Assembly (NCBI GenBank): GCA_951406725.2
Contig: OX597822.1
Span: 40,734,001-40,798,000 of the forward strand
Direction of reading: 5' to 3'
Source: Octopus vulgaris
Lineage: Eukaryota
Length of the DNA stretch: 64,000 nucleotides
The notes beneath the pieces were generated by a model. It made no database searches. It was not told the DNA's origin and was given only the letters and a program-made list of their open reading frames with translations. This document shows, piece after piece, positions 1 to 27,800 of this stretch (the stretch's first letter is position 1; each line of letters begins with the position of its first letter). The position numbers and the translations under genes were made by a program.

Positions 1-519
1 TGCATGCTTGTATGTATGTATGTATATATGTATGCATGCATGTATGTATGTATGTATGCTTGTATGTATGTATGTATGTATGTATGTATGTAGGTAGGTA
101 GGTAGGTATGTATGTATGTATGTATGTATGTATGTATGTATGTATGTATGTATGCGTGCCAGTATGTGTTTGCATGTATGTATATTTGTATGTGCGTATG
201 AATGTAACCGTGGGAATGTTTGTAACTGTGTGTATACATGTGTGTATGTATATGTATATATTTATGTATATATAAAAGCATACATACATACATATGTGTG
301 TGTGTGTCTGTATCTGTGTATAGACGTACGTACGCATGCTTTATGTACTTATATACCCATTCATCTCTCTGTATGTATATTTATATACATATGAATGTCT
401 GTGTATATGTAAACTTAGATGTTTGTATAAATATAAGTACGTATGTTTCAGTCTATTTATTTAGCTAGCTAGGCTATACACACACATACACACACATATA
501 TATATGTATATATATATAT

Positions 520-589
<70 letters not shown>

Positions 590-1941
590 TGTTAAATGTG
601 TATGATATATTTATGTGCATCTATACGAACATATGAGCACGTGCGTGTGCTTGTCAGCGTTTATGTGTATGTAGGTATATATGCATGCATGTATGTATGA
701 TTGTATGTATGTATGCATAGATGGATGGATGTCATTTATGTATGTATGTATGTATGTATGTATGTATAGGAATATTTTTTTTTTCTTCGAAATCCGTAGA
801 AAATCTTTACTGAAAACAACCCAGTCATAAACAAAATGACAATGTTTTCAAAATTTATTTTAATTTTATTTAGCTTTTGGATAAATCTGAGGATTTGTAA
901 ATATATAAGATATTTGATGCGTATGCAGTCTGCCTGGGGAAACTACACTTTCATAAAAACAAATTTATTTATTTTCTTCTAACTCACCCAGATTTATGCC
1001 TAACCAAATACTGGCGCACTGGAATCTACGTTGACGAGTTTTTCAAGTCATGCGACATAACAAGGAAGAAACATTTTAAAGAAATTTATTGTCTTATATC
1101 GGTTTTAATAATTGGTTTGAACATATTTTCACATGTATTTTAATTGATTTTCCACTGAAGTATTTGTCTTTAGTTGTATTCTTTTCAAATTTATTCGCTT
1201 TTAAATTTGTTAGCTGAAACCGATGTAAAGTCGACTAAATCCACTGAACTTGAGGTTTATTTCTTCCATTACTTTTTTTAGGAAAAAATGAAAAAAAAAA
1301 AGATGTTAAGTCGAATTGTCGTAGCTCGAAACGGTGTAAGTTGAATTATGCTTGTATTTCTCTTCACCGTTGCTACATCACTCACAAAGGTTTTTTAAAA
1401 CGTGCCCAGGGACACGTTAGCAGCTGTACAGCGCAGTTCTCGTTGCGAATTTTGAGTTCTTCTATTGATATCTCAGAGCGGGTTTCAGGTCTAGAAATTA
1501 AAGAAAAATAAACCCCGTCTGCTAGCAAATCCGGAATATCAGATTAGCGAGCAGACAAGAATCGTAGCTTTGTCATAACGTTACGGATAATGCACGATGT
1601 TTTAGCAAGTGCAATGCCGCGGCGAAGTATTCAGGTTTTCTTTGGCCATGCCTCAAAGCACATCTTTCGAACAGCCTCTCTCGAACGCTTTCAGACATCC
1701 AATTAAACTCCCTTGTCGATCGTCTGACTACGTGTAATTAACTCATGATGTACGAGGCTCTTTCAGTTAAAAACTCGATCATCTCTTTCACACTTGAGAG
1801 ACAAGATTCTCTTTCTTTTATGTCGCGGCTTCTAGGACCGAACTCATGTTGACGATAGTCAAAAGCTTTTCTTTCTTTTTTCACGAGAACATGATACTGC
1901 TTCAGTTTTTCTTTTCAAATTATGTGACAAATTTTTAGATA

Positions 1942-2041
1942 GAAGCAGGTGTGACTGTGTGGTAAAAAGTTTCAAACCTACCAAATAATTTTGGATTCAA
2001 TGCCATGAGCAAATGTCTTCCACTATAGCTTCGAGTCAACC

Positions 2042-2072
<31 letters not shown>

Positions 2073-2073
2073 T

Positions 2074-2162
<89 letters not shown>

Positions 2163-2352
2163 CCGGAGTAAGCACATAAATGTGAAACAAGGTGGGAAAA
2201 AAGAGTACTCGAATACCGGAGGTAGAGTAATATGCTTTATTAATAAAGCTGCAAAGACATCACAAAAGCTGTTACTCAGAGTTTCACGTTCCCATTCGTC
2301 GATACACATACACACACACACACACCAACACACATACATATACATACCCACT

Positions 2353-2405
<53 letters not shown>

Positions 2406-2645
2406 GTACATACATATATATACATACATACACACGCACATATGTGAGGGGAGGTGACCACCGCTTGACAACGGTAGTTAGTTTGTTAACGTCCCACTAA
2501 CCTAGACGTTCAGCAAAAGACCCCGATAGAATAAGCGCTAGACTTTAACAAAAAAAGGTGACTGCTAGAGTCGATTAAGACAAAGCCCTTCAAGGCGTTG
2601 CTCCAGCATGGCCGAAGTCTAATAGCAGAGACAAGTAAATTTAAA
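1942..2645 (+). mobile_element. SINE family A, decayed, with nested (GATA)n and an HHR-like module
   Basis: Head gcaggtgtgactgtgtggtaa, body cttccactatagcttcg and tail gctccagcatggccg match the family A copy at 45222. Duplicate at ~17742-18446. Confidence 0.8.
2269..2301 (-). ncRNA. 5'-truncated hammerhead-like motif
   Basis: Minus strand reads cGACGA-atg-ggaa-cgt-GAAA-ctc-t-gag-TA-acag. The 5' strand of stem I is replaced by a microsatellite. Duplicate at 18069-18101. Confidence 0.5.
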
Positions 2646-2749
2646 AGGCGATGATTAAACTGTATGCCTAGTTCTTCGGAAGCTTCACGAATTCTTAGCC
2701 AACGATTCTCGAACAACTAGATTCGAAGCTGACGAATAAAACCATGCAT

Positions 2750-3033
2750 TCTTTTATTCTTTTATTCTTTCATTTGGTTCAGTCATTTGACTGTGGCCAA
2801 GCTGGAGCACCGCCTTTACTCGAACAAATTGACTCCAAAACATATTCTTTGTAAGCCTAGTACTTATTCGAACGGTCTCTTGTGCCGAACCGATAAGTTA
2901 CGGGCACGTAAATACACCAACATCGGTTGTCAAGCGATGGTGGGAGGGGGACAAACAGAGCCACACAAATACATACAAACACACGCACACGCACACACAC
3001 TCACACACACACAAACACACACACGCACGTGCG

Positions 3034-3086
<53 letters not shown>

Positions 3087-3238
3087 GACGAGTTTCCGTC
3101 TACCAAATCCACTCACAAGGCTTTGGTTGGCCCGAAACTATAGTAGAAGACATTTGCTCATGGTGCCCTTCAGTGGGACTGAAACCCGAACCATGTGGTT
3201 GGGAAGTAAGCTTCTTACCACACAGCTACTCCTGCACC
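2750..3238 (-). mobile_element. SINE family A
   Basis: Reverse complement of family A, including the internal (TA)/(CA) tract. In copy 2 (18548-18995) the head is missing. Confidence 0.9.
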
Positions 3239-3275
3239 TATGTATGTTTACTGATGCTTTCTAAATGTTAGTATG

Positions 3276-3466
3276 TACAAGAGGGGGTTGAAAAGTTCCT
3301 AGCATTAAGGGTATCGCAAAACGCCTGACTGGAGGCCCAACTTTCCAAGTTTTTGCACTGGACTTAGAAAACCTGAAGGACCGCTGCAATAAGTGTGTGA
3401 ATCTGAGAAGGGAATACGTTGAATAAGATCAAAATTAATTGATCCTCCTGTATTTCCTTTCACCCT
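3276..3466 (+). mobile_element. Mariner-derived MITE, partial
   Basis: Left TIR-like tacaagagggggttgaaaagttcct. Encodes a mariner-type transposase C-terminus [20 protein letters not shown]. Confidence 0.75.
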
Positions 3467-3478
3467 TTGTGCGTGTGT

Positions 3479-3602
<124 letters not shown>

Positions 3603-3637
3603 ATATATATATATATATATATATATAATATAATATA

Positions 3638-3670
<33 letters not shown>

Positions 3671-3673
3671 ATA

Positions 3674-3889
3674 TACCAGGAGGAGCTGGAAAGTTCCTGG
3701 TTTTAAGGGTATCGGGAAAGGCCTGGCTGGAGGTTCAACTTACCGAATTCTTTTACAGGGCTTAGAAAAACTGAAGGACTGCTGTGTGAATCTGAGAGGA
3801 GAACATGTTGAATAAAATCATAATTAACTGATCTTCCTGTATTTTTTTCTTTTTGCCCAAAGCCAGGAACTTTTCAGCACCCCTTCGTA
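3674..3889 (+). mobile_element. Mariner-derived MITE
   Basis: Imperfect TIRs (gctggaaagttcctggttt / aaagccaggaacttttcagc) with TA ends. Internal [16 protein letters not shown] resembles a mariner C-terminus. Duplicate at 19406-19630. Confidence 0.85.
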
Positions 3890-4141
3890 TGTGCATGTAT
3901 GAGTACAACCGTAACCTGATCACTGATGCTTTGCCTCAGATGGAAATGCGTCAGTGATCAGGTCCCAGTGGAGCGACGAAAATTTTGACACCATCTTGTA
4001 ATAAGTTAAAGGGATTTCAACACTTTTGTTTGTTTTTGTAATTAAACGGTGGGAATGGTTCTTCCACGAGGTAATTGCTAAATTAAAATAATTTTATGGT
4101 TAAATGAATTCAGTAAATCAGCTAGCAACATAAATAGATAA

Positions 4142-4246
<105 letters not shown>

Positions 4247-4293
4247 GGGGGGAGAGCGAGAGAGAGAGAGAGAGAGAGACTAGAGAGAGAGCT

Positions 4294-4324
<31 letters not shown>

Positions 4325-4518
4325 TAGTGTAGAGAGAAATGCTCGTATAGCCGGTGAGGTGGGACGTAGAATTTCTGTAAATATGAAAACTGACAGTCTT
4401 TTATACGGAAAGCAATTTTCTATGATAATTCTTAACAGATGCACTGAAATATTTCAGTTTAACTGGAAGCTAAGAAGCAAATAATTTTATACAGATGCAT
4501 TAAGTACAGGGACAACAC

Positions 4519-4559
<41 letters not shown>

Positions 4560-4853
4560 GTACATACATAATTACATGCACACATACTACACATAAATAT
4601 ATACATGCATGTGTGTGTGTGTGTGCGTGTGTGTTTTCGCTACCCTGTGCTAACCACCTGCACTTCACGGCGCGCACACATCTCATACTATGCCCCTTTC
4701 CTTAAACAGATACCCTCCTACACATGCACACATTAACCCTCCTCTTCCTCTTTTCCCAACTTCTCATTCAATCGCATTTCTACTCGGCTCCTAAACATTT
4801 TTCCTTCACTTTATTTTACGCCTTCCCTCCTTTCCACCATCTTTCCTCTATTC

Positions 4854-4895
4854 CGTTTTTCTGATGGAGAACTAACGTCCGAAACGTCAAAGATG
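4854..4895 (+). ncRNA. Degenerate minimal type I hammerhead motif
   Basis: cgttttt-CTGATGG-a-gaac-taac-gtcc-GAAA-cgTC-aaagatg. Stem I has 7 bp with G-U pairs. A9 is changed to G and stem II has one mismatch. Duplicate at 20506-20547. Confidence 0.6.
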
Positions 4896-5125
4896 TTTTC
4901 TTTCGAGCATTAGACTAATAACACCTTTGTAAGAACATATCCCTTTTGTTGTGTTTATTATTTTCTCATTCATCATGTATATATGTGTGTGTGTGTGTCT
5001 ATATGTGTGTGTATGTATGTATGTATGTGTGCATGTATGTACGTATGTATGTATGTATTTATGCATGTATGTATGTATGTATGTATGTATGTATGTATGT
5101 ATGTATTTATGTATGTATACACACA

Positions 5126-5310
5126 CAGGATTGGCCAAAAGTCACTCCAGTTAAGAATGTTTAATAATTGAATGCTATGAGTTAAAATCACGGTTTTTTT
5201 TTTCAACATTTATCTATTTATTAGCTAAGTTTCATTTAATATAATTTTTTGTTTTAATCTTGAAATTAGATGGGTTTGATTTACTGTCAGGCGACTTTTG
5301 GCTAACCCTG
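5126..5310. mobile_element. Tc1/mariner-type MITE
   Basis: TIRs caggattggccaaaagtc / gacttttggctaaccctg, followed by TA. Duplicate 20780-21049 carries an internal duplication. Confidence 0.8.
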
Positions 5311-5527
5311 TATATAGTTACAGTGAGGATATTGAAACCCATTAAAGGGATATTTTTATCCAAGATACACTGGTTTAATATATTATATTTTGGAAGAGAT
5401 ATTTTTTCAATGAATATATTATATAAAAAATCTCAAAATATCAAATATCATAATCGAGTTAGAAAACAGAGAGACTTAATAGATACAAATTCATTTATTA
5501 ATTAATTAACATGTGTATATAGATATA

Positions 5528-5938
5528 GGCGCAGGAGTGGCTGCGTGGTAAGAAGTTTGCTTCCTAAATACACGGTTCCAGCTTCATTCCCACTACGTGG
5601 TACATTAGGCAAGTGTCTCCAACTATATAGCTTCAGGCCGATCAAAGCCTTGTGAGTGGATTTAGTAAACGAAAACTGAAAGAAGCCTGGCGTATGTATG
5701 TATGTATGTATGTATGTATGTATGTATGTATGTATGTATGTATGTATGCATTTGTTATTTGTGTCTGTGTTTGTCCCCCACCTTCGCTTGACAACCGTAA
5801 CTTAGCGGATCGGCAAAAAAACCCCGATAGAATAAGTACTAGGCTTACAAAGTATAAGTCCTGGGGTCGATTTGTTCGACTAAAGGTGGTGCTCCAGCAT
5901 GGCCGCAGTTAAATGACTGAAACAAGCAAAAGAATTGA
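5528..5938 (+). mobile_element. SINE family A
   Basis: ggcgcaggagtggctgcgtggtaag head through ...gactgaaacaagcaaaag tail. Duplicate at 21266-21690. Confidence 0.92.
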
Positions 5939-5997
5939 ATATATATATATATATACGTGTGTGTATGCATATATGCATATGTATGTGTGTGTGCAGT

Positions 5998-6072
<75 letters not shown>

Positions 6073-6228
6073 CAAGTAATAAGAGAGAGACCACATGTGG
6101 TCACTCTAACGCTAGAAATAGATCCGCAAAGGGAATCCACCACTAAAGAATTGTTCTCAAGCATTAATTCAACAACGCCAAGAATGTAAGCGGGCAGGAC
6201 AAATGAAAAATAACGAAAAAATAGATTA

Positions 6229-6304
6229 ACTCTATACAATTGTTTCATCGTTAATAGATTGTGTAATTTTACTTACATAATCATTTTCGAATCCTCAGTA
6301 GAGT
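6229..6304 (-). ncRNA. Type I hammerhead ribozyme motif
   Basis: Minus strand reads actcta-CTGAGGA-[t-tcg..gatt.tgtaa..ttaca.aatc..cga-t]-GAAA-caattg-TA-tagagt. Stem I is a perfect 6 bp, helix III is the palindrome ACAATTGT, and the cleavage triplet is GUA. Confidence 0.75.
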
Positions 6305-6751
6305 ATATCAAAAATATAATTTGCTGAACCGAACGCCAAAATCCATACGAAGCCGAGCAAAGGCGAACGGCACAGCCGATTATATTTGCAGTTACGTTCA
6401 AATATCCTCACTCTTGGCGTGTTGAAAATACCGAATGTAAATACTACCCCAGTAATTTACTGCCGGTTTGAGAACATATTAATTTATAATTAAAATCACA
6501 ATAAGGGTGAAAAAATTGAATATTAATTAATAACATCAATTTAAAACACACAGGGCCTAGCGTAAAAAAACTGTGATACAGTAAAAATTATTAATACAAG
6601 TAATAAGGGAGAGATCACATGTGGTCACTCTAATGCTAGAAATAGATCCGCAAAGGGAATCCACCACTAAAGAATTGTTCTCAAGCATTAATTCAACACG
6701 CCAAGAATGTATGCAGGCAGGACAAATAAAAAATAACGAAAAAATAGATTA

Positions 6752-6827
6752 ACTCTATACAATTGTTTCATCGTTAATAGATTGCGTAATTTTACTTACA
6801 TAATCATTTTCGAATCCTCAGTAGAGT
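6752..6827 (-). ncRNA. Type I hammerhead ribozyme motif (second tandem unit)
   Basis: Same core and stems as 6229-6304, located 523 nt away. Confidence 0.75.
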
Positions 6828-6929
6828 ATATCAAAAATATAATTTGCTGAACCGAACGCCAAAATCCATACGAAGCCGAGCAAAGGCGAACAGCACAGCC
6901 GTTTATATCTGCAGTTATATTTTTGATAT

Positions 6930-7005
6930 ACTCTACTGAGGATTCGAAAATGATTATGTAAGTAAAATTACACAATCTATTAACGATGAAACAGTTGTAT
7001 AGAGT
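6930..7005 (+). ncRNA. Type I hammerhead ribozyme motif (inverted arm)
   Basis: actcta-CTGAGGA...GAAA-cagttg-TA-tagagt. Core boxes intact; the helix III palindrome is broken by an A>G change. Confidence 0.7.
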
Positions 7006-7264
7006 TAATCTATTTTTTCGTTATTTTTCATTTGTCCTGCCCGCTTACATTCTTGGCGTGTTGAATTAATTCTTGAGAACAATTCTTTAGTGGTGGATTC
7101 CCTTTGCGGATCTTTTTTCTAGCGCTAGACTGACTACATGTAGTCTCTCTCTTATTACTTGTATTAATAATTTTTACTGTATCACAGTTTTTTTACGCTA
7201 GGCCACTTGGTGTTTTAAATTGATGTTATTAATTAATATTCAATTTTTTTCACCCTTATTGTGA

Positions 7265-7325
<61 letters not shown>

Positions 7326-7412
7326 TATTCTTATATATACCGATAGCAACACCCTGTACTTTTCTCCTTGTTTTATAACTCTCTCTTGTCACTATATGAG
7401 TATACCTAGACA

Positions 7413-7762
7413 TGTAGAGGCGTAATGGTCTGTCGCAGTCGTAGGATCGCGGTTTCTATTCCCAGACCGGACGTTGTGAGTGTTTATTGGGCTCCGACAA
7501 GGGTTGGTGGCGAACCCTGCTGTACTCTTTCCCCACAACTTTCTCTCACTCTTTCTTCCTGTTTCTATTGTACCTGTATTTTAAAGGGCCAGCCTTGTCA
7601 TACACTGTATCACGCTGAATCTCCCCGAGAACTACGTTAAGGGTACAAGTGTTTGTGCAGTGCTCAGCCACTTTCACGTTAATTTCACGAGCAGGCTGTT
7701 CCGTTGATCAGATTAACTGACACCCTCGTCGTCGTAACCGATGGAGTGCCACGACGACGTTT
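7413..7762 (+). mobile_element. SINE family C (tRNA head, RTE-like tail)
   Basis: Matches 36530-36923. Tail cgtcgtcgtaaccgatggagtgcc; TSD cctagacat. Duplicate at ~22633-22998. Confidence 0.9.
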
Positions 7763-8331
7763 CCTAGACATAGTGCAATTTTCAATATAATTATTTAAAT
7801 TTTAAATTAATTTCATTATCATTGGTCATTATCAGCTATACGCTCGTTCAAAAGATATTTAATAAATATACGTACCAAACTTTAATTTCTTCCTTAATTT
7901 TACGTTTCTGCTCTCACTCATTAAAGCACAACCACCCTTACTAATAATTTTTTTCTCCATTTCTTTTGCGTCTCCGTTTATCGCATTGAACTGTCCGTTC
8001 AGTTTGTTGTTGGTCAATCAGACACCATTTTCCAAATGAGAATTCTGCTTGATTTTTAAATGGCACATGAGGGAAGTAACGTAAACTAGAATGTGGTAAC
8101 GAAAAAGGAAATAAAACACACAATGTATTTCAGTCCAATAGAACTGCCATAAATGGGTTTTTTTTCGTCTTTTATTTTTGTATTTTTTGCTGATTCTTTC
8201 ATGAAACAAAAGTGCACCAAATCAAAGAAATCTATGTACAAAGTCACGTATTCAATACAAGTGCTTATATAAATATTGAACTGATACTGCAATTTATTTC
8301 AAAATATTTATTTTAAAATTTATGAACAGAA

Positions 8332-8388
<57 letters not shown>

Positions 8389-8390
8389 AA

Positions 8391-8584
8391 GGTAGTGAGC
8401 TGGCTGAATCGTTAGAGGTATTTCGTCTGTCTTTACGTTCTGAGTTCAAATTCCGCCGAGGTCGACTTTGCCTTTCATCCTTTCAGAATCGATAAAATAA
8501 GTACTAGTCAAGTACTGGGGTCGTTTTGCCCGACTATCCCCCTCCCCTCAAATTCCAGGCCTTGTGCCTATAATAGAAAGGATT
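8391..8584 (+). mobile_element. SINE family B between (GTT)n and (CTT)n
   Basis: gagctggctgaatcgttag head, B-box-like gagttcaaattcc, and gtcgactttgcctttcatcc. Duplicate at ~23669-23862. Confidence 0.9.
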
Positions 8585-9025
8585 CTTCTTCTTCTTCTTC
8601 TTCTTCTTCTTCTTCTTCTTCTTCTTCTTCTTCTTCTTCTTCTTCTTTTTCTTCTTCTTCTTCATCTTCTTCTTATTCTTATTATTCTTCTTTCGGCCAA
8701 TTATAAACTTAACTGTTCTGGATTTTGCCATGATCTTGCGTATAGTTTCGGGAATGAGAATGATTTGCCATCCCAAAAATTTTTTTCCGCTACAAAATTA
8801 CCCAGGCCATTTTTCTAAATCTCAACGGCGTTCAAACAATGCATTGTGCAAAATAGCAACTTGGCCATTTTCTTAAAGGAATTCGACATTCAGATTCTAA
8901 AGAAGAAAAATCAAAAGCGTAGTAAACATCGCTACGTTTAGGAAAGTGCACATGATTCTCAGACTGGTATATATGTAACCAAACATCCCAAAAGTAAACA
9001 AACACCGTTTTTGAACGATATATTT

Positions 9026-9339
9026 CAGGGGTTGGCGAACCGGGGTAAATTACCCCAAATGGAGTACAAATGGCATTTTGGTGGGTAATGACTCATTAGA
9101 CATAAGTAAAATTATATATATAAAAAAAACGTGTTCCTCGTTACTACAGAAAATTTTTCTTCTAGCAACACTGCATCTGTCCAATGTAATGGACGTATGA
9201 ATAGATTCATAAAAATACATTCAATAAGCCTTTTGAATTGAAAGAATCTATGATTTTCTTCCTTTCAAATCAAGAGGGTAACATCGGCGTAAATAAATAT
9301 ATTTGGGGGTAATTGGTTAAAAAGGTTCCCCAAACCCTG
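9026..9339. mobile_element. hAT-type MITE
   Basis: TIRs caggggttggcgaacc / ggttccccaaaccctg with a perfect 8-bp TSD atatattt (9018-9025, 9340-9347). Duplicate at 24316-24632. Confidence 0.9.
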
Positions 9340-10348
9340 ATATATTTTCCTTTTCTCCTTTGGTCGAAAAAGTGGTTCCTTCTAAGTGCTCTACCATAGT
9401 AGCCAAGCTGGTGGGTATATTTCAAAAAAGTATTCTGACTCATTTGGGATTGCTCTGCAGCTTCAGCTGTCTTGTTACGGGTATTATTTTACAACAATCC
9501 GCTTGGTTGCTCGAAGACATTTATCAAAGGACGCGGATCAACCCGAGCGGGAGGCTGTTGATTCTGTTTCTTTGCTCAGGAATTATATAATCAGTCTGTT
9601 GTCTGTGGCAAATCTCAAGGTTTGGCGTAATCATACGCTGGCTAAGTTCACACTCACACTGACCCAGAATACGCTCGCTTTGAAAGTCAGACACTTCTAT
9701 TACTCATGGTGTTCGTAGTATGGCTTGTTGCTATAACAAAATCAACATTTTGTAATCTGATATGAAAAATAATAATACATAAGCAGTTTTGAAGCGCCAG
9801 GTAGTTTCCTCACAGATTAATGAGGGGCATCTATTCAATTTTGAGGTGTCTATGTGTGTGTGCGCGCGCGCGCGTGTGTGTGTGTGCGCGTGCGTGTGTG
9901 TGTGTACACGTATACACCCCTGACCTATTATTACCCCTAAATGAAACTCTCAGTAAACACACTCGCACTCTTAATACACACACACATACACACAAACGCA
10001 TACATAGACATACGGACATACAAATTCAAGTGTATCCTGCCCATTATCTTCTTTGTTCTCCCTTCTAGAAAGCTTTTGTAATCTGTTTCGACCAGCGCTT
10101 GCAGGATCAATACATGGCTCTTCGGACCGTAGGTTACCCTCTTCCCATTTTTTCTCTCGCTCTCTTTACTTTTCGGTCTGGTGAACGACTATTATCTGAA
10201 ATGTTAAAGATATTTATATTTTATTTTCCAGTTCATATTATTGTTATTATGTTTTGTTATTTCTGGCGTTACTTTTTAACTTATCTTTTCGCTATGCGCT
10301 CGCATATTCATACATGCATATACATACATACATACATACATACATACA

Positions 10349-10379
<31 letters not shown>

Positions 10380-10885
10380 CTACATACATACACACATGCT
10401 CACGTTCATACATATATATATACGTACATATATATATACAAACACAGATACTCACGCTCATATATATACATACATATATGTATATATATATATATATACA
10501 TACATATATATATACACACACACACATGTGTGTGTGCGCACGCGCGTATACACACACTCACAACTCTAATGGTATATAGACAGGAAATGAAGGTGTAAGC
10601 TGAAGAGCGGGAGGCGTAGTGTTTCCCCTAATATAAGCATATATAGAAAATGAACTTTTACAAATTGTATACATTTATGCTTATATACATACAAATATAT
10701 ATATATATACATACATATATGTATATATATATATATATACGTGTGTGTGTGTGTGTGTGTGTGTGTACCTTTACCGTGATATTTGTGTGTATGTCGGTGT
10801 GCATGAGTTTATGATACTTGTATATGTATAGACACACGTACGTGTGATGGGAATCACTCATAGACACACAAATGTTTATCCAAAT

Positions 10886-10926
<41 letters not shown>

Positions 10927-10949
10927 GGAGTGATAAATGTGTGAGCCTG

Positions 10950-11075
10950 TGAGGAGATGGCGGCAAGATCAAAAGACAACTGTTTATCCCACCCAGCTGA
11001 CGCCCACCTATTGTCCTATTGTTGATGACATTGGAATTTATAAAAGGAGGCAGGGTCTCTGATTGTTAGAGATAC
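10950..11075 (+). promoter_or_regulatory. Candidate TATA-containing Pol II promoter
   Basis: TATAAAAG at 11039-11046, tandem CCTATTGT (Sox-like) at 11007-11022, ATTGG at 11030 and AGATGGCGGC (YY1-like) at 10954. Motif content only. Confidence 0.3.
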
Positions 11076-11111
11076 ACCAGAAATTCCTCCCAGCTGTTCA
11101 GTTTACTACTG

Positions 11112-11210
<99 letters not shown>

Positions 11211-11325
11211 TTACTTTAGCTACGACTACTACAACAGAAACATCTTCAATTGTGAGCAGAAGTTCAAAGACAAGTGTAGAGAGAAGATTACTATGCATAA
11301 GGCCATCAACACTACAACAACAACA

Positions 11326-11368
<43 letters not shown>

Positions 11369-11524
11369 TGGTAAATCATTTCTAATATTGGCACAGGACC
11401 ATGAATCTGTGGGAAAGGATTAACCAGTTCAATTGACTCCAGTACTTGACTGGTTCTCTATTTTATCGAAACCGGAAGGACGAAATCCTTCTTGGTTGGA
11501 TTTGAAGAGAAATAATTAAATATT

Positions 11525-11735
11525 GGGTTCAAATTTTCGCACAAACCCAGCCAGTTCGGAGGAGGGCTTATGTCGATTACATCGACCTCAGTCCTCAACT
11601 AATTTTTTTATTTAATCGACCTTGAAGGGATGAAATGCAAAATTGGCCTCAGCGGAATTTGAACTCAGAACGTAAAGACAGACGAAATGCTGCTGAGCAT
11701 TTTGTCTGGCGTACTAACGATTCTGCCAGCTCGAC
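11525..11735 (-). mobile_element. SINE family B
   Basis: ggaatttgaactcagaacg...gattctgccagctc is the reverse complement of the family B head. A further fragment lies at ~11380-11505. Confidence 0.85.
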
Positions 11736-11825
11736 ACCACTGCCACGCACTTTGTTGCTCTACCGGTTTTTGTTCTTTGTTGAGAAGGGATGTAGTTAAT
11801 TAGATGAACACCATTATATGGCTAA

Positions 11826-12075
11826 AAGGATAAAAACCCCTTTCGGTCATGAATGACCTAGAAAGATGCCCTCCGAGGCACAAGACCAGGCAAGGTTGTT
11901 TATGGAAGAATAGCAGTCGCCCATGCATACTAGCCTCCCCTCTTCGTGCCATCGATGTAATCCAAGGGAAAGACAAAGGCCGATACAGATTGGAACCAGT
12001 GACGTTGCAACTCATTTCGACAGCTGGGTGAACTAAAGCAACGTGAAATGAAAAGTCTTGTTCAAGACCATCATA
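11826..12075 (-). mobile_element. SINE family D, 3' part
   Basis: Reverse complement of the body and tail seen at 48520-48862 (ccctttcggtcatga..., gcaacgtgaaatgaaaagtcttg). Confidence 0.8.
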
Positions 12076-12384
12076 TAACAGGTACCAAATTTATTAACTC
12101 CTGGTGGGAAGTGAAGAAATTAGAGGCAGTGGTAAGAATAGCCCCACAATGTTACACCCACATTTGCATTATGTTCTTTACAATCCTCGTAGATATCATG
12201 TACACACAGAGTGTATATAGATAGATAGAGAGAGAGAGAGAAAGAGAGAGATACGAAATACAGTGTATAGAGTATACTTATAAGTAAGACAATGTGTTGG
12301 TCTAGATGAGACAGACTGAGTCTATATATTCACAATAAATATAGACAATGTATAGACAATGCCTACATATTCATAGTAATATAT

Positions 12385-12614
12385 ATTTCTTTACTACCCA
12401 CAAGGGGCTAAACATAGAGGGGACAAACAAGGACAGACAAAGGGATTAAGTCGATTACATTGACCCCAGTGCGAAACTGTTACTTTATTTATCGACCCCG
12501 AAAGGATGAAAGGCAAAGTCGACCTCGGCAGAATTTGAACTCAGAACGTAACGACAGACGAAATACTGCTAAGCATTTCGCCCGGCGCGCTAACGACTCT
12601 GCCAGCTCGCCGCC
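12385..12614 (-). mobile_element. Full-length SINE family B, absent from duplication copy 2
   Basis: Complete head-to-tail match to family B. Empty site catagtaatatagacagc at ~27930-27947. Confidence 0.92.
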
Positions 12615-12939
12615 ATAGACAGCATGTAGACAGGATCTATATATTAGTTTCAAATTTTGGCACAATAATTATAAAAATATTTTGTAGAAAATATTGTTAC
12701 TATTATTATTAAGGAAACGAGCTGACAGGTTCGTTGCAATGCCGAACAAAATGCGTAGGGGTATTTCGTTCGGTTCTTTACTTTTTCAGGACAATTTTGT
12801 CTTTCATCTTTTCAAGGTCAGTAAAAGTGTGTCAATCAAGTCAATAGTATCGACTACCCAACTCCCACGTTGCAGGCCTGGTACCAAAATTAGAAAGAAT
12901 TATTATCGTTATTATTGTTGTTATTACGCCTGTGAAAAC

Positions 12940-13223
12940 GCATGGCCTAGTGGTTAAGGAGTTCTACTCGAGATCGTGGTTTCAATTCTTAGGCTGAGTA
13001 GTGTGTTGTGTTCTTGAGCAAAACATTCCATTTCACGTTGCTCTTCGAACACTTCGACACCTGACGCGTGGCACACAGTGCACCTGTTCAGACAACGTCG
13101 ATTTGATGGAGGGAGAGTGAGCTAATGTGCGGCACATACATTTGATTACTATAAACGAATCATTTGTGCAGGTCCTTCGGCAAAAGCTGAACACTCATAC
13201 GCCATCTTCGACGAGAGATTCCA
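12940..13223 (+). mobile_element. tRNA-headed SINE (family D-like head, different tail)
   Basis: A-box-like tggcctagtggttaagg, B-box-like ggtttcaattc, and CORE-like gtgttcttgagcaaaacat. Duplicate at 28281-28564. Confidence 0.8.
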
Positions 13224-13323
13224 NNNNNNNNNNNNNNNNNNNNNNNNNNNNNNNNNNNNNNNNNNNNNNNNNNNNNNNNNNNNNNNNNNNNNNNNNNNNN
13301 NNNNNNNNNNNNNNNNNNNNNNN
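13224..13323. other. Assembly gap (100 N)
   Basis: Exactly 100 Ns, the usual placeholder for a gap of unknown size. Confidence 0.99.
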
Positions 13324-15397: not shown

Positions 15398-16318
15398 CTG
15401 AATGTGATTTGAACAAACGTAAATACGTACTGACATATACACAAACATACACCCATATATATACGCACATACACACACGTGAACACACCCATATATATGT
15501 CCGTATATATGTATACATGTGAGTATTTATGTATATTCAAATCACATACATACATTCCTACATTTCTACATAGTTATACGCGTACAAGAATGAATGTGTC
15601 TCCATAGTTGTAAGCTTTCACATTTGTTAAAATTAAGATGGCAGGCGGTGTAGGAGAATTGTTTGGTTACGGTCAATAAACCTGTTGTTTGCCAACATAG
15701 TCTCTCATGCTTCGGGGATAATAATTCCAATACAGAAGTCAGACAGACGTTTAACGAATTTTTAATAGTTCTTCTCGTATCTCTGTATCTATATGTATGC
15801 ATGCATGCTTGTATGTATGTATGTATATATGTATGCATGCATGTATGTATGTATGTATGCTTGTATGTATGTATGTATGTATGTATGTATGTAGGTAGGT
15901 AGGTAGGTATGTATGTATGTATGTATGTATGTATGTATGTATGTATGTATGTATGCGTGCCAGTATGTGTTTGCATGTATGTATATTTGTATGTGCGTAT
16001 GAATGTAACCGTGGGAATGTTTGTAACTGTGTGTATACATGTGTGTATGTATATGTATATATTTATGTATATATAAAAGCATACATACATACATATGTGT
16101 GTGTGTGTCTGTATCTGTGTATAGACGTACGTACGCATGCTTTATGTACTTATATACCCATTCATCTCTCTGTATGTATATTTATATACATATGAATGTC
16201 TGTGTATATGTAAACTTAGATGTTTGTATAAATATAAGTACGTATGTTTCAGTCTATTTATTTAGCTAGCTAGGCTATACACACATACACACACATATAT
16301 ATATGTATATATATATAT

Positions 16319-16388
<70 letters not shown>

Positions 16389-17841
16389 TGTTAAATGTGT
16401 ATGATATATTTATGTGCATCTATACGAACATATGAGCACGTGCGTGTGCTTGTCAGCGTTTATGTGTATGTAGGTATATATGCATGCATGTATGTATGAT
16501 TGTATGTATGTATGCATAGATGGATGGATGTCATTTATGTATGTATGTATGTATGTATGTATGTATAGGAATATTTTTTTTTTCTTCGAAATCCGTAGAA
16601 AATCTTTACTGAAAACAACCCAGTCATAAACAAAATGACAATGTTTTCAAAATTTATTTTAATTTTATTTAGCTTTTGGATAAATCTGAGGATTTGTAAA
16701 TATATAAGATATTTGATGCGTATGCAGTCTGCCTGGGGAAACTACACTTTCATAAAAACAAATTTATTTATTTTCTTCTAACTCACCCAGATTTATGCCT
16801 AACCAAATACTGGCGCACTGGAATCTACGTTGACGAGTTTTTCAAGTCATGCGACATAACAAGGAAGAAACATTTTAAAGAAATTTATTGTCTTATATCG
16901 GTTTTAATAATTGGTTTGAACATATTTTCACATGTATTTTAATTGATTTTCCACTGAAGTATTTGTCTTTAGTTGTATTCTTTTCAAATTTATTCGCTTT
17001 TAAATTTGTTAGCTGAAACCGATGTAAAGTCGACTAAATCCACTGAACTTGAGGTTTATTTCTTCCATTACTTTTTTTTTAGGAAAAAAAAAAAAAAAAA
17101 AGACGTAAAGTCGAATTGTCGTAGCTCGAAACGATGTAAGTTGAATTATGCTTGTATTTCTCTTCACCGTTGCTACATCACTCACAAAGGTTTTTTAAAA
17201 CGTGCCCAGGGACACGTTAGCAGCTGTACAGCGCAGTTCTCGTTGCGAATTTTGAGTTCTTCTATTGATATCTCAGAGCGGGTTTCAGGTCTAGAAATTA
17301 AAGAAAAATAAACCCTGTCTGCTAGCAAATCCGGAATATCAGATTAGCGAGCAGACAAGAATCGTAGCTTTGTCATAACGTTACGGATAATGCACGATGT
17401 TTTAGCAAGTGCAATGCCGCGGCGAAGTATTCAGGTTTTCTTTGGCCATGCCTCAAAGCACATCTTTCGAACAGCCTCTCTCGAACGCTTTCAGACATCC
17501 AATTAAACTCCCTTGTCGATCGTCTGACTACGTGTAATTAACTCATGATGTACGAGGCTCTTTCAGTTAAAAACTCGATCATCTCTTTCACACTTGAGAG
17601 ACAAGATTCTCTTTCTTTTATGTCGCGGCTTCTAGGACCGAACTCATGTTGACGATAGTCAAAAGCTTTTCTTTCTTTTTTCACGAGAACATGATACTGC
17701 TTCAGTTTTTCTTTTCAAATTATGTGACAAATTTTTAGATAGAAGCAGGTGTGACTGTGTGGTAAAAAGTTTCAAACCTACCAAATAATTTTGGATTCAA
17801 TGCCATGAGCAAATGTCTTCCACTATAGCTTCGAGTCAACC

Positions 17842-17872
<31 letters not shown>

Positions 17873-17873
17873 T

Positions 17874-17962
<89 letters not shown>

Positions 17963-18152
17963 CCGGAGTAAGCACATAAATGTGAAACAAGGTGGGAAAA
18001 AAGAGTACTCGAATACCGGAGGTAGAGTAATATGCTTTATTAATAAAGCTGCAAAGACATCACAAAAGCTGTTACTCAGAGTTTCACGTTCCCATTCGTC
18101 GATACACATACACACACACACACACCAACACACATACATATACATACCCACT

Positions 18153-18203
<51 letters not shown>

Positions 18204-18832
18204 GTACATACATATATATACATACATACACACGCACATATGTGAGGGGAGGTGACCACCGCTTGACAACGGTAGTTAGTTTGTTAACGTCCCACTAACC
18301 TAGACGTTCAGCAAAAGACCCCGATAGAATAAGCGCTAGACTTTAACAAAAAAAGGTGACTGCTAGAGTCGATTAAGACAAAGCCCTTCAAGGCGTTGCT
18401 CCAGCATGGCCGAAGTCTAATAGCAGAGACAAGTAAATTTAAAAGGCGATGATTAAACTGTATGCCTAGTTCTTCGGAAGCTTCACGAATTCTTAGCCAA
18501 CGATTCTCGAACAACTAGATTCGAAGCTGACGAATAAAACCATGCATTCTTTTATTCTTTTATTCTTTCATTTGGTTCAGTCATTTGACTGTGGCCAAGC
18601 TGGAGCACCGCCTTTACTCGAACAAATTGACTCCAAAACATATTCTTTGTAAGCCTAGTACTTATTCGAACGGTCTCTTGTGCCGAACCGATAAGTTACG
18701 GGCACGTAAATACACCAACATCGGTTGTCAAGCGATGGTGGGAGGGGGGACAAACAGAGCCACACAAATACATACAAACACACGCACACGCACACACACT
18801 CACACACACACAAACACACACACGCACGTGCG

Positions 18833-18885
<53 letters not shown>

Positions 18886-18991
18886 GACGAGTTTCCGTCT
18901 ACCAAATCCACTCACAAGGCTTTGGTTGGCCCGAAACTATAGTAGAAGACATTTGCTCATGGTGCCCTTCAGTGGGACTGAAACCCGAACC

Positions 18992-19242
<251 letters not shown>

Positions 19243-19858
19243 AATATTAGGGAATAAATCCAAATTTACAGGGAAAAAAATCAGATTTAGGATTAAATCC
19301 AATTTTATAGTAAAATATTATAAAATATTATTAGAGACAAAACCACTATTTTGCAAAACAAACAAGGAAAGACTTAATCAATACATAAAATTTTTATAAA
19401 TAATATACGAGGAGGAGCTGGAAAGTTCCTGGTTTTAAGGGTATCGGGAAAGGCCTGGCTGGAGGTTCAACTTACCGAATTCTTTAACAGGGCTTAGAAA
19501 AACTGAAGGACTGCTGCAATATGTGTGTGAATCTGAGAGGAGAACATGTTGAATAAAATCATAATTAACTGATCTTCCTGTATTTTTTTCTTTTTGCCCA
19601 AAGCCAGGAACTTTTCAGCACCCCTTCGTATGTGCATGTATGAGTACAACCGTAACCTGATCACTGATGCTTTGCCCCAGTGGAGCGACGAAAATTTTGA
19701 CACCATCTTGTAATAAGTTAAAGGGATTTCAACACTTTTGTTTGTTTTTGTAATTAAACGGTGGGAATGGTTCTTCCACGAGGTAATTGCTAAATTAAAA
19801 TAATTTTATGGTTAAATGAATTCAGTAAATCAGCTAGCAACATAAATAGATAAATAGT

Positions 19859-19965
<107 letters not shown>

Positions 19966-20164
19966 AGTCGTAGTGTAGAGAGAAATGCTCGTATAGCCGG
20001 TGAGGTGGGACGTAGAATTTCTGTAAATATGAAAACTGACAGTCTTTTATACGGAAAGCAATTTTCTATGATAATTCTTAACAGATGCACTGAAATATTT
20101 CAGTTTAACTGGAAGCTAAGAAGCAAATAATTTTATACAGATGCATTAAGTACAGGGACAACAC

Positions 20165-20207
<43 letters not shown>

Positions 20208-21741
20208 GTACATACATAATTACATGCACACATACTACACATAAATATATACATGCATGTGTGTGTGTGTGTGTGTGCGTGTGTGTTTTCGCTACCCTGT
20301 GCTAACCACCTGCACTTCACGGCGCGCACACATCTCATACTATGCCCCTTTCCTTAAACAGATACCCTCCTACACATGCACACATTAACCCTCCTCTTCC
20401 TCTTTTCCCAACTTCTCATTCAATCGCATTTCTACTCGGCTCCTAAACATTTTTCCTTCACTTTATTTTACGCCTTCCCTCCTTTCCACCATCTTTCCTC
20501 TATTCCGTTTTTCTGATGGAGAACTAACGTCCGAAACGTCAAAGATGCTTTCTTTCGAGCATTAGACTAATAACACCTTTGTAAGAACATATCCCTTTTG
20601 TTGTGTTTATTATTTTCTCATTCATCATGTATATATGTGTGTATGTGTGTCTATATGTGTGTATGTATGTATGTATGTGTGCATGTATGTACGTATGTAT
20701 GTATGTATTTATGTATGTATGTATGTATGTATGTATGTATGTATGTATGTATGTATGTATTTATGTATGTATACACACACAGGATTGGCCAAAAGTCACT
20801 CCAGTTAAGAATGTTTAATAATTGAATGCTGTGAGTTAAAATCACGGTTTTTTTTTCAACATTTATCTATTTATTAGCTAAGTTTCATTTAATATAATTT
20901 TTTGTTTTAATCTTGAAATTAGATGGGTTTGGTTTTTTTAACCCTCAACATTTATCTATTTATTAGGTCAGTTTCATTTAATATAATTTTTTGTTTTAAT
21001 CTTTTAGATGGGTTTTGATTTACTGTCAGGCGACTTTTGGCCAACCCTGTATATAGTCACAGTGAGGATATTGAAACCCATTAAAGGGATATTTTTATCC
21101 AAGATACACTGGTTTAATATATTATATTTTGGAGAGATATTTTTTCAAAGAATATATTATATAAAAAATCGCAAAATATCAAATATTATAATCGAGTTAG
21201 AAAACAGAGAGACCTAATAGATACAAGTTTATTTATTAATTAATTAACATGTGTATATAGATATAGGCGCAGGAGTGGCTGCGTGGTAAGAAGTTTGCTT
21301 CCTAAATACACGGTTCCAGCTTCAGTCCCACTGCGTGGTACATTGGGCAAGTGTCTCCAACTATAGCTTCAGGCCGATCAAAGCCTTGTGAGTGGATTTA
21401 GTAAACGAAAACTGAAAGAAGCCTGACGTATGTATGTATGTATGTATGTATGTATGTATGTATGTATGTATGTATGTATTTGTTATTTGTGTCTGTGTTT
21501 GTCCCCCACCTTCGCTTGACAACCGATGCTGGTGTGTTTACGTCCCCGTAACTTCGCAGTTCGGCAAAATAACCCGATAGAATAAGTACTAGGCTTACAA
21601 AGTATAAGTCCTGTGGTCGATTTGTTCGACTAAATGTGGTGCTCCAGCATGGCCGCAGTCAAATGACTGAAACAAGCAAAAGAATTGAATATATATATAC
21701 GTGTGTGTATGCATATATGCATGTGTATGTGTGTGTGCAGT

Positions 21742-21813
<72 letters not shown>

Positions 21814-21816
<3 letters not shown>

Positions 21817-22512
21817 AGTAATAAGAGAGAGATCACATGTGGTCACTCTAACGCTAGAAATAGATTCGCAAAGGGAATCCACCACTAAAGAATTGTTCTC
21901 AACCATTAATTCAACACGCCAAGAATGTAAGCGGGCAGGACAAATGAAAAATAACGAAAAAATAGATTAACTCTATACAATTGTGTCATCGTTAATAGAT
22001 TGTGTAATTTTACTTACATAATCATTTTCGAATCCTCAGTAGAGTATATCAAAAATATAATTTGCTGAACCGAACGCCAAAATCCATACGAAGCCGAGCA
22101 AAGGCGAACGGCACAGCCGTTTATATTTTTGATATATTTATATTTTTGATATATTTATATTTTTGATATACTCTACTGAGAATTCGAAAATGATTATGTA
22201 AGTAAAATTACACAATCTATTAACGATGAAACAATTGTATAGAGTTAATCTATTTTTTCGTTATTTTTCATTTGTCCTGCCCGCTTACATTCTTGGCGTG
22301 TTGAATTAATGCTTGAGAACAATTCTTTAGTGGTGGATTCCTTTTGCGGATCTTTTTCTAGCGCTAGAGTGACCACATGTGGTCTCTTTCTTATTACTTG
22401 TATTAAAAGTTTTTTACTGTATCTCAGTTTTTTTTACGCTAGGCCACTTGGTGTTTTAAATTGATGCTATTAATTAATATTCAATTTTTTTCACCCTTAT
22501 TGTGATTTTAAT

Positions 22513-22516
<4 letters not shown>
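21814..22516 (-). mobile_element. Allelic/duplicate version of the HHR hairpin element (single unit plus inverted arm)
   Basis: HHR motifs at 21970-22045 (minus; GAAA>GACA) and 22170-22245 (plus; CTGAGGA>CTGAGAA). Lacks the extra tandem unit. Confidence 0.8.
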
Positions 22517-22544
<28 letters not shown>

Positions 22545-23633
22545 TATTCTTATATATACCGATAGCAACACCCTGTACTTTTCTCCTTGTTTTATAACTC
22601 TCTCTTGTCACTATATGAGTATACCTAGGCATGTAGAGGCGTAATGGCCTGTTGGTTAGGGCAGCGGACTCGCAGTCGTAGGATCGCGGTTTCTATTCCC
22701 AGACCGGACGTTGTGAGTGTTTATTGGGCTCCGACAGGGGTTGGTGGCGAACCCTGCTGTACTCTTTCCCCACAACTTTCTCTCACTCTTTCTTCCTGTT
22801 TCTATTGTACCTGTATTTTAAAGGGCCAGCCTTGTCATTCACTGTGCCACGCTGAATCTCCCCGAGAACTACGTTAAGGGTACAAGTGTTTGTGCAGTGC
22901 TCAGCCACTTTCACGTTAATTTCACGAGCAGGCTGTTCCGTTGATCAGATTAACTGGAACCCTCGTCGTCGTAACCGATGGAGTGCCACGACGACGTTTC
23001 CTAGACATAGTGCAATTTTCAATATAATTATTTAAATTTTATATTAATTTCAACGCACCCTCGGCCATTATCAGCTATACGCTGGTTCAAAAGATATTTA
23101 ATAAATATACATACCAAACTTTAATTTCTTCCTTAATTTTACGTTTCTGCTCTCACTCATTAAAGCACAACCACCCTTACTAATAATTTTTTTCTCCATT
23201 TCTTTTGCGTCTCCGTTTATCGCATTGAACTGTCCGTTCAGTTTGTTGTTGGTCAATCAGACACCATTTTCCAAATGAGAATGCTGCTTGATTTTTAAAT
23301 GGCACTTAAACAGGGTATTAAAACTAGCGTTAAGAAATACAAACTTTCTATCTTTGTTCGTATTAAGATGAGGGAAGTAACGTAAACTAGAATGTGGTAA
23401 CGAAAAAGGAAATAAAACACACAATGTATTTCAGTCCAATAGAACTGCCATAAATGGGTTTTTTTTTCGTCTTTTATTTTTGTATTTTCTGCTGATTCTT
23501 TCATGAAACAAAAGTGCACCAAATCAAAGAAATCTATGTACAAAGTCACGTATTCAATACAAGTGTTTATATAAATATTGAACTGATACTGCAATTTATT
23601 TCAAAATATTTATTTTAAAATTTATGAACAGAA

Positions 23634-23666
<33 letters not shown>

Positions 23667-25644: not shown

Positions 25645-25675
<31 letters not shown>

Positions 25676-26201: not shown

Positions 26202-26242
<41 letters not shown>

Positions 26243-26427: not shown

Positions 26428-26506
<79 letters not shown>

Positions 26507-27529: not shown

Positions 27530-27701
<172 letters not shown>

Positions 27702-27756: not shown

Positions 27757-27800
<44 letters not shown>

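What the first reader, a model, noticed from the sequence alone, without database searches (positions are those of the whole stretch)
6073..6915. Two hammerhead ribozymes 523 nt apart in a tandem non-coding unit: candidate cephalopod retrozyme / circular-RNA replicon
Seen: a head-to-tail repeat in (TA)n with no ORF. Each unit carries, on the minus strand, stem I actcta/tagagt, CUGAGGA, an extended stem II, GAAA, palindromic helix III ACAAUUGU and a GUA site (6229-6304, 6752-6827). Established: minimal type I HHRs with palindromic helix III occur in Penelope-like element pLTRs and in metazoan non-LTR retrozymes, can cleave as dimers, and release monomers that may circularise. Inference: a minus-strand transcript would excise a 523-nt monomer mobilised in trans by a PLE RT. 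Atypical point: U-U in place of the usual 10.1-11.1 pair, and a long branched stem II.
Basis: partly seen in the sequence, partly recalled or inferred. Interest (0 to 1): 0.8.

Follow-up and report, generated by a model that had tools for sequence, protein, structure and literature searches.

The report
Penelope-type hammerhead retrozyme insertion
This is one ageing, two-armed copy of a protein-free repeat whose 523-base unit carries a predicted self-cutting RNA motif that related copies keep intact; it was likely pasted in by a Penelope-type enzyme, possibly from an RNA circle, and is a new member of a known class (animal retrozymes).

Summary
The insertion spans 6073-7275 in (TA)n. It has a 1.6-unit arm plus an inverted 361-nt arm with a third hammerhead and a 111-nt tail, which is the Penelope-like (PLE) footprint. 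There is no ORF.

In public contigs, family variation fits selection on a hammerhead. Only N7 and H17 have several alleles, H17 is not seen as G, and both partners vary at 4 pairs (0.7 expected). U10.1-U11.1 is fixed in the family and has published precedent. Helix II is long but unbranched.

Every arm runs through the cut site, so the template was not a cut linear monomer: probably a circle, possibly uncut tandem RNA. Cleavage, expression, the circle and the partner enzyme are not shown. The active fold is predicted 6-7 kcal/mol above an inactive one. Two of five local copies have broken cores.

The scan noted similar 353-536 nt families elsewhere in this genome; none matched this sequence. 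Verdict: new member of a known kind, interest 0.35.

The parts
6048..6072 (.). (TA)n target tract, left side
   Evidence: sequence
6073..6595 (-). Unit A, complete 523-nt non-coding unit; 6073 is the short 3' end of the long arm (inferred RT start 1)
6229..6304 (-). Hammerhead A, intact core; predicted cut after 6235; U10.1 at 6291, U11.1 at 6247, N7 at 6294
   Evidence: family variation
6323..6376 (-). GC-rich hairpin upstream of the hammerhead; pair 6331/6368 varies G-C to A-U in the family
   Evidence: fold; variants
6409..6426 (-). One arm of a predicted 18-bp long-range helix with 6692-6709 (6169-6186 in unit A) that encloses both inferred RT start sites
   Evidence: prediction only
6485..6595 (-). 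111-nt tail segment between the two 3' ends; 6485 is the long end (inferred RT start 2)
   Evidence: alignment; (TA)n loose ends at 6485 in 12 X1 contigs and 2 X10 contigs
6596..6917 (-). Unit B, 5'-truncated upstream copy (322 nt, 3.1% diverged from A)
6752..6827 (-). Hammerhead B, intact core; predicted cut after 6758
6915..6917 (.). Head-to-head junction of the two arms at a 3-nt shared TTA
6915..7275 (+). Inverted arm C, 5'-truncated, 361 nt, carrying the tail (7163-7275)
6930..7005 (+). Hammerhead C; core intact, one change in the helix III palindrome
7276..7339 (.). (TA)n-rich target tract, right side
21815..22128 (-). Arm D at the duplicate of the same insertion site; one truncated unit only, GAAA box changed (A14C)
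22120..22170 (.). Three copies of a 17-mer at the D/E junction
22155..22517 (+). Inverted arm E with tail; core change G8A

Best explanation
The stretch 6073-7275 is one insertion of a multi-copy, ORF-less 523-nt repeat carrying a type I hammerhead motif, and it was likely written into (TA)n by a borrowed Penelope-like RT-endonuclease, most likely copying a self-cleaved and re-ligated RNA circle. Shown: the two-armed anatomy, two recurrent 3' ends 111 nt apart, no ORF, variation that respects the hammerhead. Inferred: tandem RNA from some active family member is cut slowly (probably with protein help) and ligated by a host ligase. The PLE enzyme nicks both strands of (TA)n and starts cDNA at two internal sites, 162 and 273 nt downstream of the cut. 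One cDNA ran 845 nt (1.6 turns, across the cut site twice), the other 361 nt (across it once), and they were joined head to head at TTA. This particular copy is ageing and is unlikely to be a main source of circles.
For: Footprint: partial tandem + adjacent inverted 5'-truncated copy + tail at one end + (TA)n matches EN+ PLE insertions (PMC8557442; PMC3846280). The tail equals the distance between two internal RT starts in a PLE assay that extends both strands (PMC11167929). The long end recurs with (TA)n in 12 X1 and 2 X10 contigs; other head-to-head junctions occur at different places (6159/6303 in X15; at 6291 in X4). One X15 contig runs from the short end through the tail and spacer to the hammerhead, with its own inversion point, so the ORF-less unit is not a deletion peculiar to this locus (record 16). 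Selection (four runs, three studies, changes at 3% or more of depth): 14 of 76 hammerhead positions vary; the only two with several alleles are N7 (all three alternatives) and H17 (U and C, not G, though A to G is the transition); both partners vary at 4 pairs against 0.7 expected (P=0.0005; 0.004 using paired positions only; slid registers give 0-1). All five arms in the window cross the cut site. The duplicate site lacks about 97 nt of the unit (6388-6484), so A could not have been made from it locally. An intact, hammerhead-bearing, (TA)n-targeting PLE is listed for Octopus bimaculoides (Hydra-1_Obim; supplement of PMC8557442).
Against: No cleavage assay and no circle were observed. The active fold is predicted 6.1-6.9 kcal/mol above an inactive fold in local context, with stem I probability 0.002; the swapped dimer fold is worse still (-209.4 against -213.6 for two monomers and -227.0 free). 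Rfam found no hammerhead match. Core against non-core conservation was not significant (P=0.68). U4C reaches 3-30% of depth, A6281C breaks a pair, the partner of the 6249 change appears only in loose-end letters, and G8A appears at low depth. The tables give unlinked shares, depth is not copy number, and subfamilies share changes, so the P values are optimistic. Outside the hammerhead, structure conservation was weak and not strand-specific (9 of 29 changes break pairs against 12.7 expected, P=0.07). In the anole PLE, cleavage was not needed for insertion in vitro and uncut RNA was the main template. Only 1 of 9 predicted Xenopus retrozyme dimers cleaved. Hydra-1_Obim's hammerhead differs from this one, so the partner is not identified. 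Only one of the 32 contig pieces shown bridges the tail end by 31 nt or more.
Confidence: 0.55

Rival explanations
1. Same non-autonomous PLE passenger, but the template is an uncut linear tandem transcript; the hammerhead only trims RNA or acts late, and no circle is needed.
For: Explains cDNA crossing the cut site equally well. In vitro the anole PLE uses uncut RNA, its hammerhead cuts only with protein, and no RNA-seq reads ended at the cut (PMC11167929). The fold here is predicted to be mostly inactive.
Against: If cutting only destroyed templates, G at position 17 should be tolerated or favoured, yet it is absent at 3% while both transversions occur (inference). Circles were shown for coral, mussel and axolotl repeats of this class (PMC7229834).
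Confidence: 0.27
2. These are only the pLTR and tail of an autonomous PLE, and the 523-nt unit is a rare internal deletion rather than a family of its own.
For: The footprint is that of PLEs, whose copies are mostly truncated. No genome was available to exclude ORF-linked copies. Only 24 of 125 and 24 of 85 loose-end rows were shown.
Against: No ORF remnant in the unit. An independent insertion in X15 has the same closed unit. The motif lacks the extra base and G10.1-C11.1 typical of metazoan PLE minimal hammerheads (PMC4209133). No exact match of five motif words to a family hammerhead in the PLE sequences of PMC8557442's supplement.
Confidence: 0.13
3. A locally duplicated AT-rich repeat in which the hammerhead is a chance or dead motif.
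For: No Rfam match; two of five local copies carry core-breaking changes; inactive fold predicted.
Against: 0 of 3000 shuffles give the motif; allele pattern at N7 and H17 and four co-varying pairs; recurrent ends and inversions in other samples.
Confidence: 0.05

Closest known systems
Animal non-LTR retrozymes (coral, mussel, axolotl: PMC7229834; 35-genome survey: bioRxiv 10.64898/2026.07.22.740005)
   Same: ORF-less, low-GC (32.9%) tandem unit with a type I hammerhead in consecutive units; more self-paired than shuffles; PLE proposed as mobiliser. Axolotl HHR_Amex2 also has U-U at the base of helix II and a 2-bp helix III with tetraloop.
   Different: 523 nt, above the 170-400 nt of the circles shown but inside the 51-972 bp survey range; 45-nt helix II region; hammerhead predicted blocked in the circle (most published ones are predicted free); inverted arm, tail and (TA)n target are not described for retrozymes in the parts I read; no cephalopod example found in my searches; expression and circle untested.
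EN+ Penelope-like elements (Penelope/Poseidon, Neptune, Hydra, Naiad; PMC8557442, PMC3846280, PMC11167929, PMC4209133)
   Same: Partial tandem, adjacent inverted 5'-truncated copy, tail at one end, (TA)n target, type I hammerhead with palindromic helix III upstream of the 3' ends.
   Different: No RT or GIY-YIG ORF; tail 111 nt rather than 30-40; hammerhead lacks the extra base and G10.1-C11.1 and has 6-bp helix I; sequence differs from the Hydra-1_Obim hammerhead.
Non-autonomous Chlamys PLEs such as MRC1 of Chlamydomonas (PMC8557442, passage)
   Same: Non-coding PLE passengers with pLTRs and head-to-tail insertions.
   Different: Most Chlamys lack canonical hammerheads; green algae; (CA)n or (C)n targets.

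Membership tests
Type I hammerhead ribozyme | Core CUGANGA, GAAA, UH in type I order with helices I-III | tested here: met
   A, B and C pass the descriptor; 0 of 3000 shuffles
Type I hammerhead ribozyme | Variation keeps helices and falls on the free positions 7 and 17 | tested here: met
   4 co-varying pairs, N7 and H17 multi-allelic; linkage not shown; U4C subfamily and one pair-breaking change
Type I hammerhead ribozyme | Core positions more conserved than the rest of the motif | tested here: inconclusive
   1 of 11 against 13 of 65, P=0.68
Type I hammerhead ribozyme | R10.1-Y11.1 pair | tested here: not met
   U-U, with no change at 3%; natural exception reported (PMC3088659; PMC7229834)
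Type I hammerhead ribozyme | Match to an Rfam hammerhead model | tested here: not met
   none up to E 10; the long helix II is a likely reason (inference)
Type I hammerhead ribozyme | Loop 1-loop 2 tertiary contact | not tested
   a 2x2 loop extension of stem I can be drawn but no contact was examined
Type I hammerhead ribozyme | Self-cleavage | not testable with these tools
   needs in vitro assay
Animal non-LTR retrozyme | [quoted passage not shown] | tested here: met
   A and B, 523 nt apart; B is a partial unit
Animal non-LTR retrozyme | No coding capacity, GC below 50% | tested here: met
   63 codons at most; GC 32.9%
Animal non-LTR retrozyme | Multi-copy family of the closed unit | tested here: inconclusive
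   797 X1 contigs laid with many variants, one X15 contig bridges the unit; no copy number, no genome
Animal non-LTR retrozyme | Highly self-paired monomer with the hammerhead free to fold | tested here: inconclusive
   z -4.8, 0 of 40 shuffles, but antisense gives -6.6; hammerhead predicted blocked
Animal non-LTR retrozyme | Absence of LTR, PBS and PPT | not tested
   no search for PBS or PPT was run
Animal non-LTR retrozyme | Expressed as linear and circular monomer RNA | not testable with these tools
   only contigs were served
Autonomous EN+ Penelope-like element | RT plus GIY-YIG ORF between pLTRs | tested here: not met
Autonomous EN+ Penelope-like element | Partial tandem with adjacent inverted 5'-truncated copy in (TA)n | tested here: met
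Autonomous EN+ Penelope-like element | Optional 30-40 bp tail at one end | tested here: inconclusive
   a tail at one end is present and recurrent but 111 nt long
Autonomous EN+ Penelope-like element | Minimal hammerhead with extra base and G10.1-C11.1 | tested here: not met
   against PMC4209133

The most novel reading that the evidence does not exclude
The insertion is a genomic record of rolling-circle reverse transcription: a Penelope-type enzyme copies one 523-nt RNA circle from two fixed internal starts 111 nt apart, one at each nicked strand. The family's avoidance of G17 would then show that cutting and re-ligation are obligatory, supplying the missing role of PLE hammerheads and tying retrozymes to PLE machinery in a cephalopod.
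Probability: 0.35. Interest if true: 0.65.

Novelty: new member of a known kind. Interest (0 to 1): 0.35.

Why it matters
The role of hammerheads in Penelope-like elements and the enzyme that moves animal retrozymes are open questions: PLEs are the proposed mobiliser (PMC7229834; bioRxiv 2026.07.22.740005) and cleavage was dispensable in the one in vitro PLE system (PMC11167929). A short ORF-less unit with the full PLE footprint, defined start sites and natural variation at the cut site is a small, convenient substrate to test circle against uncut template. As a single locus it is an ordinary ageing copy, and the scan has noted several sister families in the same genome.

Tried and rejected
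No whole genome is held, so no copy count, no end survey and no partner search. Rfam scans at E up to 10 gave only microsatellite and hairpin matches. Run search: no RNA holder listed; 20 of 24 rows hold part of the unit and none is on record as RNA. X10 and X15 are only guessed to be RNA, I laid no silent control, and their pieces look like genomic insertions (one stops at the tail end, one has an inversion), so I draw nothing about expression. The 6595-to-6073 joint in X1, X10 and X15 is not evidence of a circle: every tailed arm contains it. Depth differences along the unit were not used, as contig depth cannot rank parts. No pile of ends at the cut site was listed, but contigs cannot show that. 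Flank variants at 6215 and 6220 seen were not listed, probably because they lie near the stretch end, so I did not compare core with flanks across calls. Motif scans found 0 matches in viral contigs and metagenome contigs. An alternative register using the first GAAA after the core was rejected by eye: no stem I follows. Structure conservation outside the hammerhead: a first look at 15 of 29 listed rows seemed favourable; all 29 gave P=0.07 on the sense and 0.10 on the antisense strand, and 23 multi-run rows gave 0.014 and 0.015, so inconclusive; 20 further rows of that table were not shown. The bacterial promoter scan is uninformative here. Pfam on six ORF fragments elsewhere in the window gave RVT_1 and zf-RVT below cutoff and no GIY-YIG. 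Which of A or B is the counterpart of D could not be settled (5 and 10 mismatches). Earlier-finding look-ups by sequence, near place and words gave nothing. Literature searches for a cephalopod retrozyme found none; the supplement of PMC7229834 and the bioRxiv supplements could not be read, and one of the PMC4209133 files was not searched, so an unseen mention is possible.

Full report
Observation. The minus strand holds two hammerhead motifs with identical cores at 6304-6229 and 6827-6752. The predicted cuts follow 6235 and 6758 and would release 523 nt of 32.9% GC. A type I descriptor found 3 hits in the window, 0 in 3000 shuffled units and 2 in 30 block-shuffled windows. Rfam gave no hammerhead match. 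The doubled unit has at most 63 stop-free codons. Helix II spans 45 nt and is an unbranched hairpin with internal loops.

Anatomy. Between (TA)n tracts lie unit A (6073-6595, complete), unit B (6596-6917, 5'-truncated) and an inverted copy C (6915-7275). C has its own hammerhead on the plus strand (6930-7005) and joins B head to head at a shared TTA. C reads 113 nt past the point where the long arm ends; this tail equals 6595-6485 of unit A, 111 nt. The window contains a long duplication, and the same insertion site recurs at 21815-22517 with one truncated unit D, a tripled 17-mer and an inverted arm E. That site lacks about 97 nt of the unit (6388-6484), so the full unit was most likely in the original insertion and was lost there by recombination between the direct repeats (inference). 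The five arms differ by 1.6-5.7% and the duplicate flanks by 2-3%. D has A14C and E has G8A, changes I expect from recalled hammerhead biochemistry to inactivate. Local copies are therefore decaying.

This is the footprint described for endonuclease-bearing Penelope-like elements: partial tandem, adjacent inverted 5'-truncated copy, optional tail at one end and (TA)n bias (PMC8557442; PMC3846280). In the anole PLE the protein nicks and extends both strands at AT-rich DNA and starts reverse transcription at two internal RNA sites whose spacing is the tail (PMC11167929).

Family evidence. No genome was held, so I laid public contigs. Twenty of 24 listed runs hold part of the unit, under four organism labels. 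Of these I laid seven: X1, X5, X10 and X15 on the unit, and X1-X4 on 6196-6340. In one search, 797 X1 contigs were laid. (TA)n abuts 6485 in 12 X1 and 2 X10 contigs, so the long end is a family feature. One X15 contig passes the short end, tail and spacer to the hammerhead and has its own inversion point; it is the only one of 32 pieces shown that bridges the tail end by 31 nt or more. An X4 loose end marks another inversion at 6291.

In one search, 19 rows at 16 places passed 3% of depth, and 14 places lie in the 76-nt motif. Position 7 shows all three alternatives. Position 17 shows U and C but not G, although A to G is the transition. These are the only multi-allelic places; the chance of that pair is 1 in 2850 if fixed beforehand, and their tolerance is recalled hammerhead consensus. 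Both partners vary at 6300/6233 and 6290/6248 (U-A to C-G), 6282/6257 (G-C to A-U) and 6278/6261 (an A-C mismatch here, A-U or G-C in others). That is 4 pairs against 0.7 expected, P=0.0005, or 0.004 among paired positions, with 0-1 in slid registers. 6231 keeps a wobble. U10.1, U11.1, the helix III palindrome and ten of eleven strict core positions show no change at 3%.

Against this: U4C reaches 3-30% of depth, 6281 breaks a pair, the partner of 6249 is seen only in loose-end letters, G8A appears at low depth, and core against non-core counts are not significant (P=0.68). The shares are unlinked, depth is not copy number, the four labels show one spectrum, and subfamilies share changes, so these P values are optimistic. 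U-U at 10.1/11.1 and U4C both have natural precedent (PMC3088659; axolotl HHR_Amex2). Outside the motif the test was inconclusive, apart from one G-C to A-U pair at 6331/6368.

Mechanism. Shown: anatomy, two ends, no ORF, the allele pattern. Inferred: mobilisation by a PLE enzyme from two internal starts, 162 and 273 nt downstream of the cut. A cut linear monomer would let cDNA run only those distances, yet all five arms cross the cut site and the long arm crosses it twice. The template was therefore a ligated circle or uncut tandem RNA, barring template jumps. I favour the circle (0.55 against 0.27) because a cleavable position 17 is kept and circles are shown for three animal retrozyme families (PMC7229834).

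The opposing evidence is real. The anole PLE inserts without cleavage, and only 1 of 9 predicted Xenopus dimers cleaved. Here the active fold is predicted 6.1-6.9 kcal/mol above a fold that hides stem I, and the swapped dimer is predicted worse than two monomers. A minus-strand transcript entering from the right flank would pair hammerhead B with arm C, so this locus would need an internal start to release a monomer. The partner is unknown. The supplement of PMC8557442 lists a complete (TA)n-targeting Hydra-1_Obim with a different hammerhead, and no family match was found there by five exact words.

Comparison and novelty. It works like an animal non-LTR retrozyme and meets the sequence criteria tested, while expression and circularity are untested. 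It is not an autonomous PLE. The link between retrozymes and PLE pLTRs is already argued in print, with unit sizes of 51-972 bp (bioRxiv 10.64898/2026.07.22.740005). Searches for octopus or cephalopod with hammerhead or retrozyme found no description of such a family. The host label octopus comes from earlier unchecked notes on this genome, which also describe sister families of 353-536 nt with the same two-armed shape. I reuse their wording of two arms and two fixed starts, having checked it on this family only.

What I read. bioRxiv 2026.07.22.740005: parts 1-3 of 5, supplements closed. PMC7229834: passages and parts 2-4 of 6, supplement unreadable. PMC4209133: parts 1-2 of 4 and word searches in two supplement files, one file not searched. 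PMC11167929: parts 1-3 of 4. PMC8557442: passages and word searches in its supplement. PMC3846280, PMC3088659 and PMC6962438: passages. Other papers: search listings only.

Verdict. A real, selected hammerhead in a non-autonomous Penelope-type element; new member of a known kind; interest 0.35. The most novel reading, rolling-circle copying from two fixed starts with obligatory cleavage, has probability 0.35 and would deserve 0.65.

Noticed in passing
window 1-13223 versus 15802-28564: A duplication of about 13 kb at 93-99.6% identity by segment, with a 100-base N gap at 13224-13323 between the copies; either a segmental duplication or two haplotypes placed side by side in the assembly.
   Followed up: partly
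window 46580-46815: Diverged relative of the unit (tail plus 3' part, roughly 70% alike) next to a (TAGA)n/(TA)n tract, ending before any hammerhead; suggests a sister family with the same long end.
   Followed up: partly
window 46120-46390: A short insertion between (TA)n tracts with a 62-nt inverted repeat (46185-46246 and 46252-46313, 97% complementary); looks like another truncated head-to-head insertion, with no descriptor hit.
   Followed up: partly
window 22120-22170: The junction between the two arms at the duplicate site has lost about 10 nt and gained three copies of a 17-mer, so the palindrome centre is unstable.
   Followed up: no
window 6297 with 6294 and 6278 (family variants): A subfamily appears to carry U4C, possibly with U7 and a deletion in helix II, at up to 30% of depth; whether it cleaves is open.
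   Followed up: no
window 6182, 6218 and 6248-6281 (loose ends): Related families keep the hammerhead region but diverge on both sides; some show different helix II base pairs with the U-U kept.
   Followed up: no
window 39562-40350, 44666-44971, 52731-53171: Broken non-LTR retrotransposon fragments; weak Pfam RVT_1 and zf-RVT matches below cutoff for two of them, no GIY-YIG domain.
   Followed up: partly
window 5526-5933, 7390-7760 and many similar places: Several dispersed repeat families of 200-450 nt flank the insertion and recur through the window; SINE-like by appearance, not tested.
   Followed up: no
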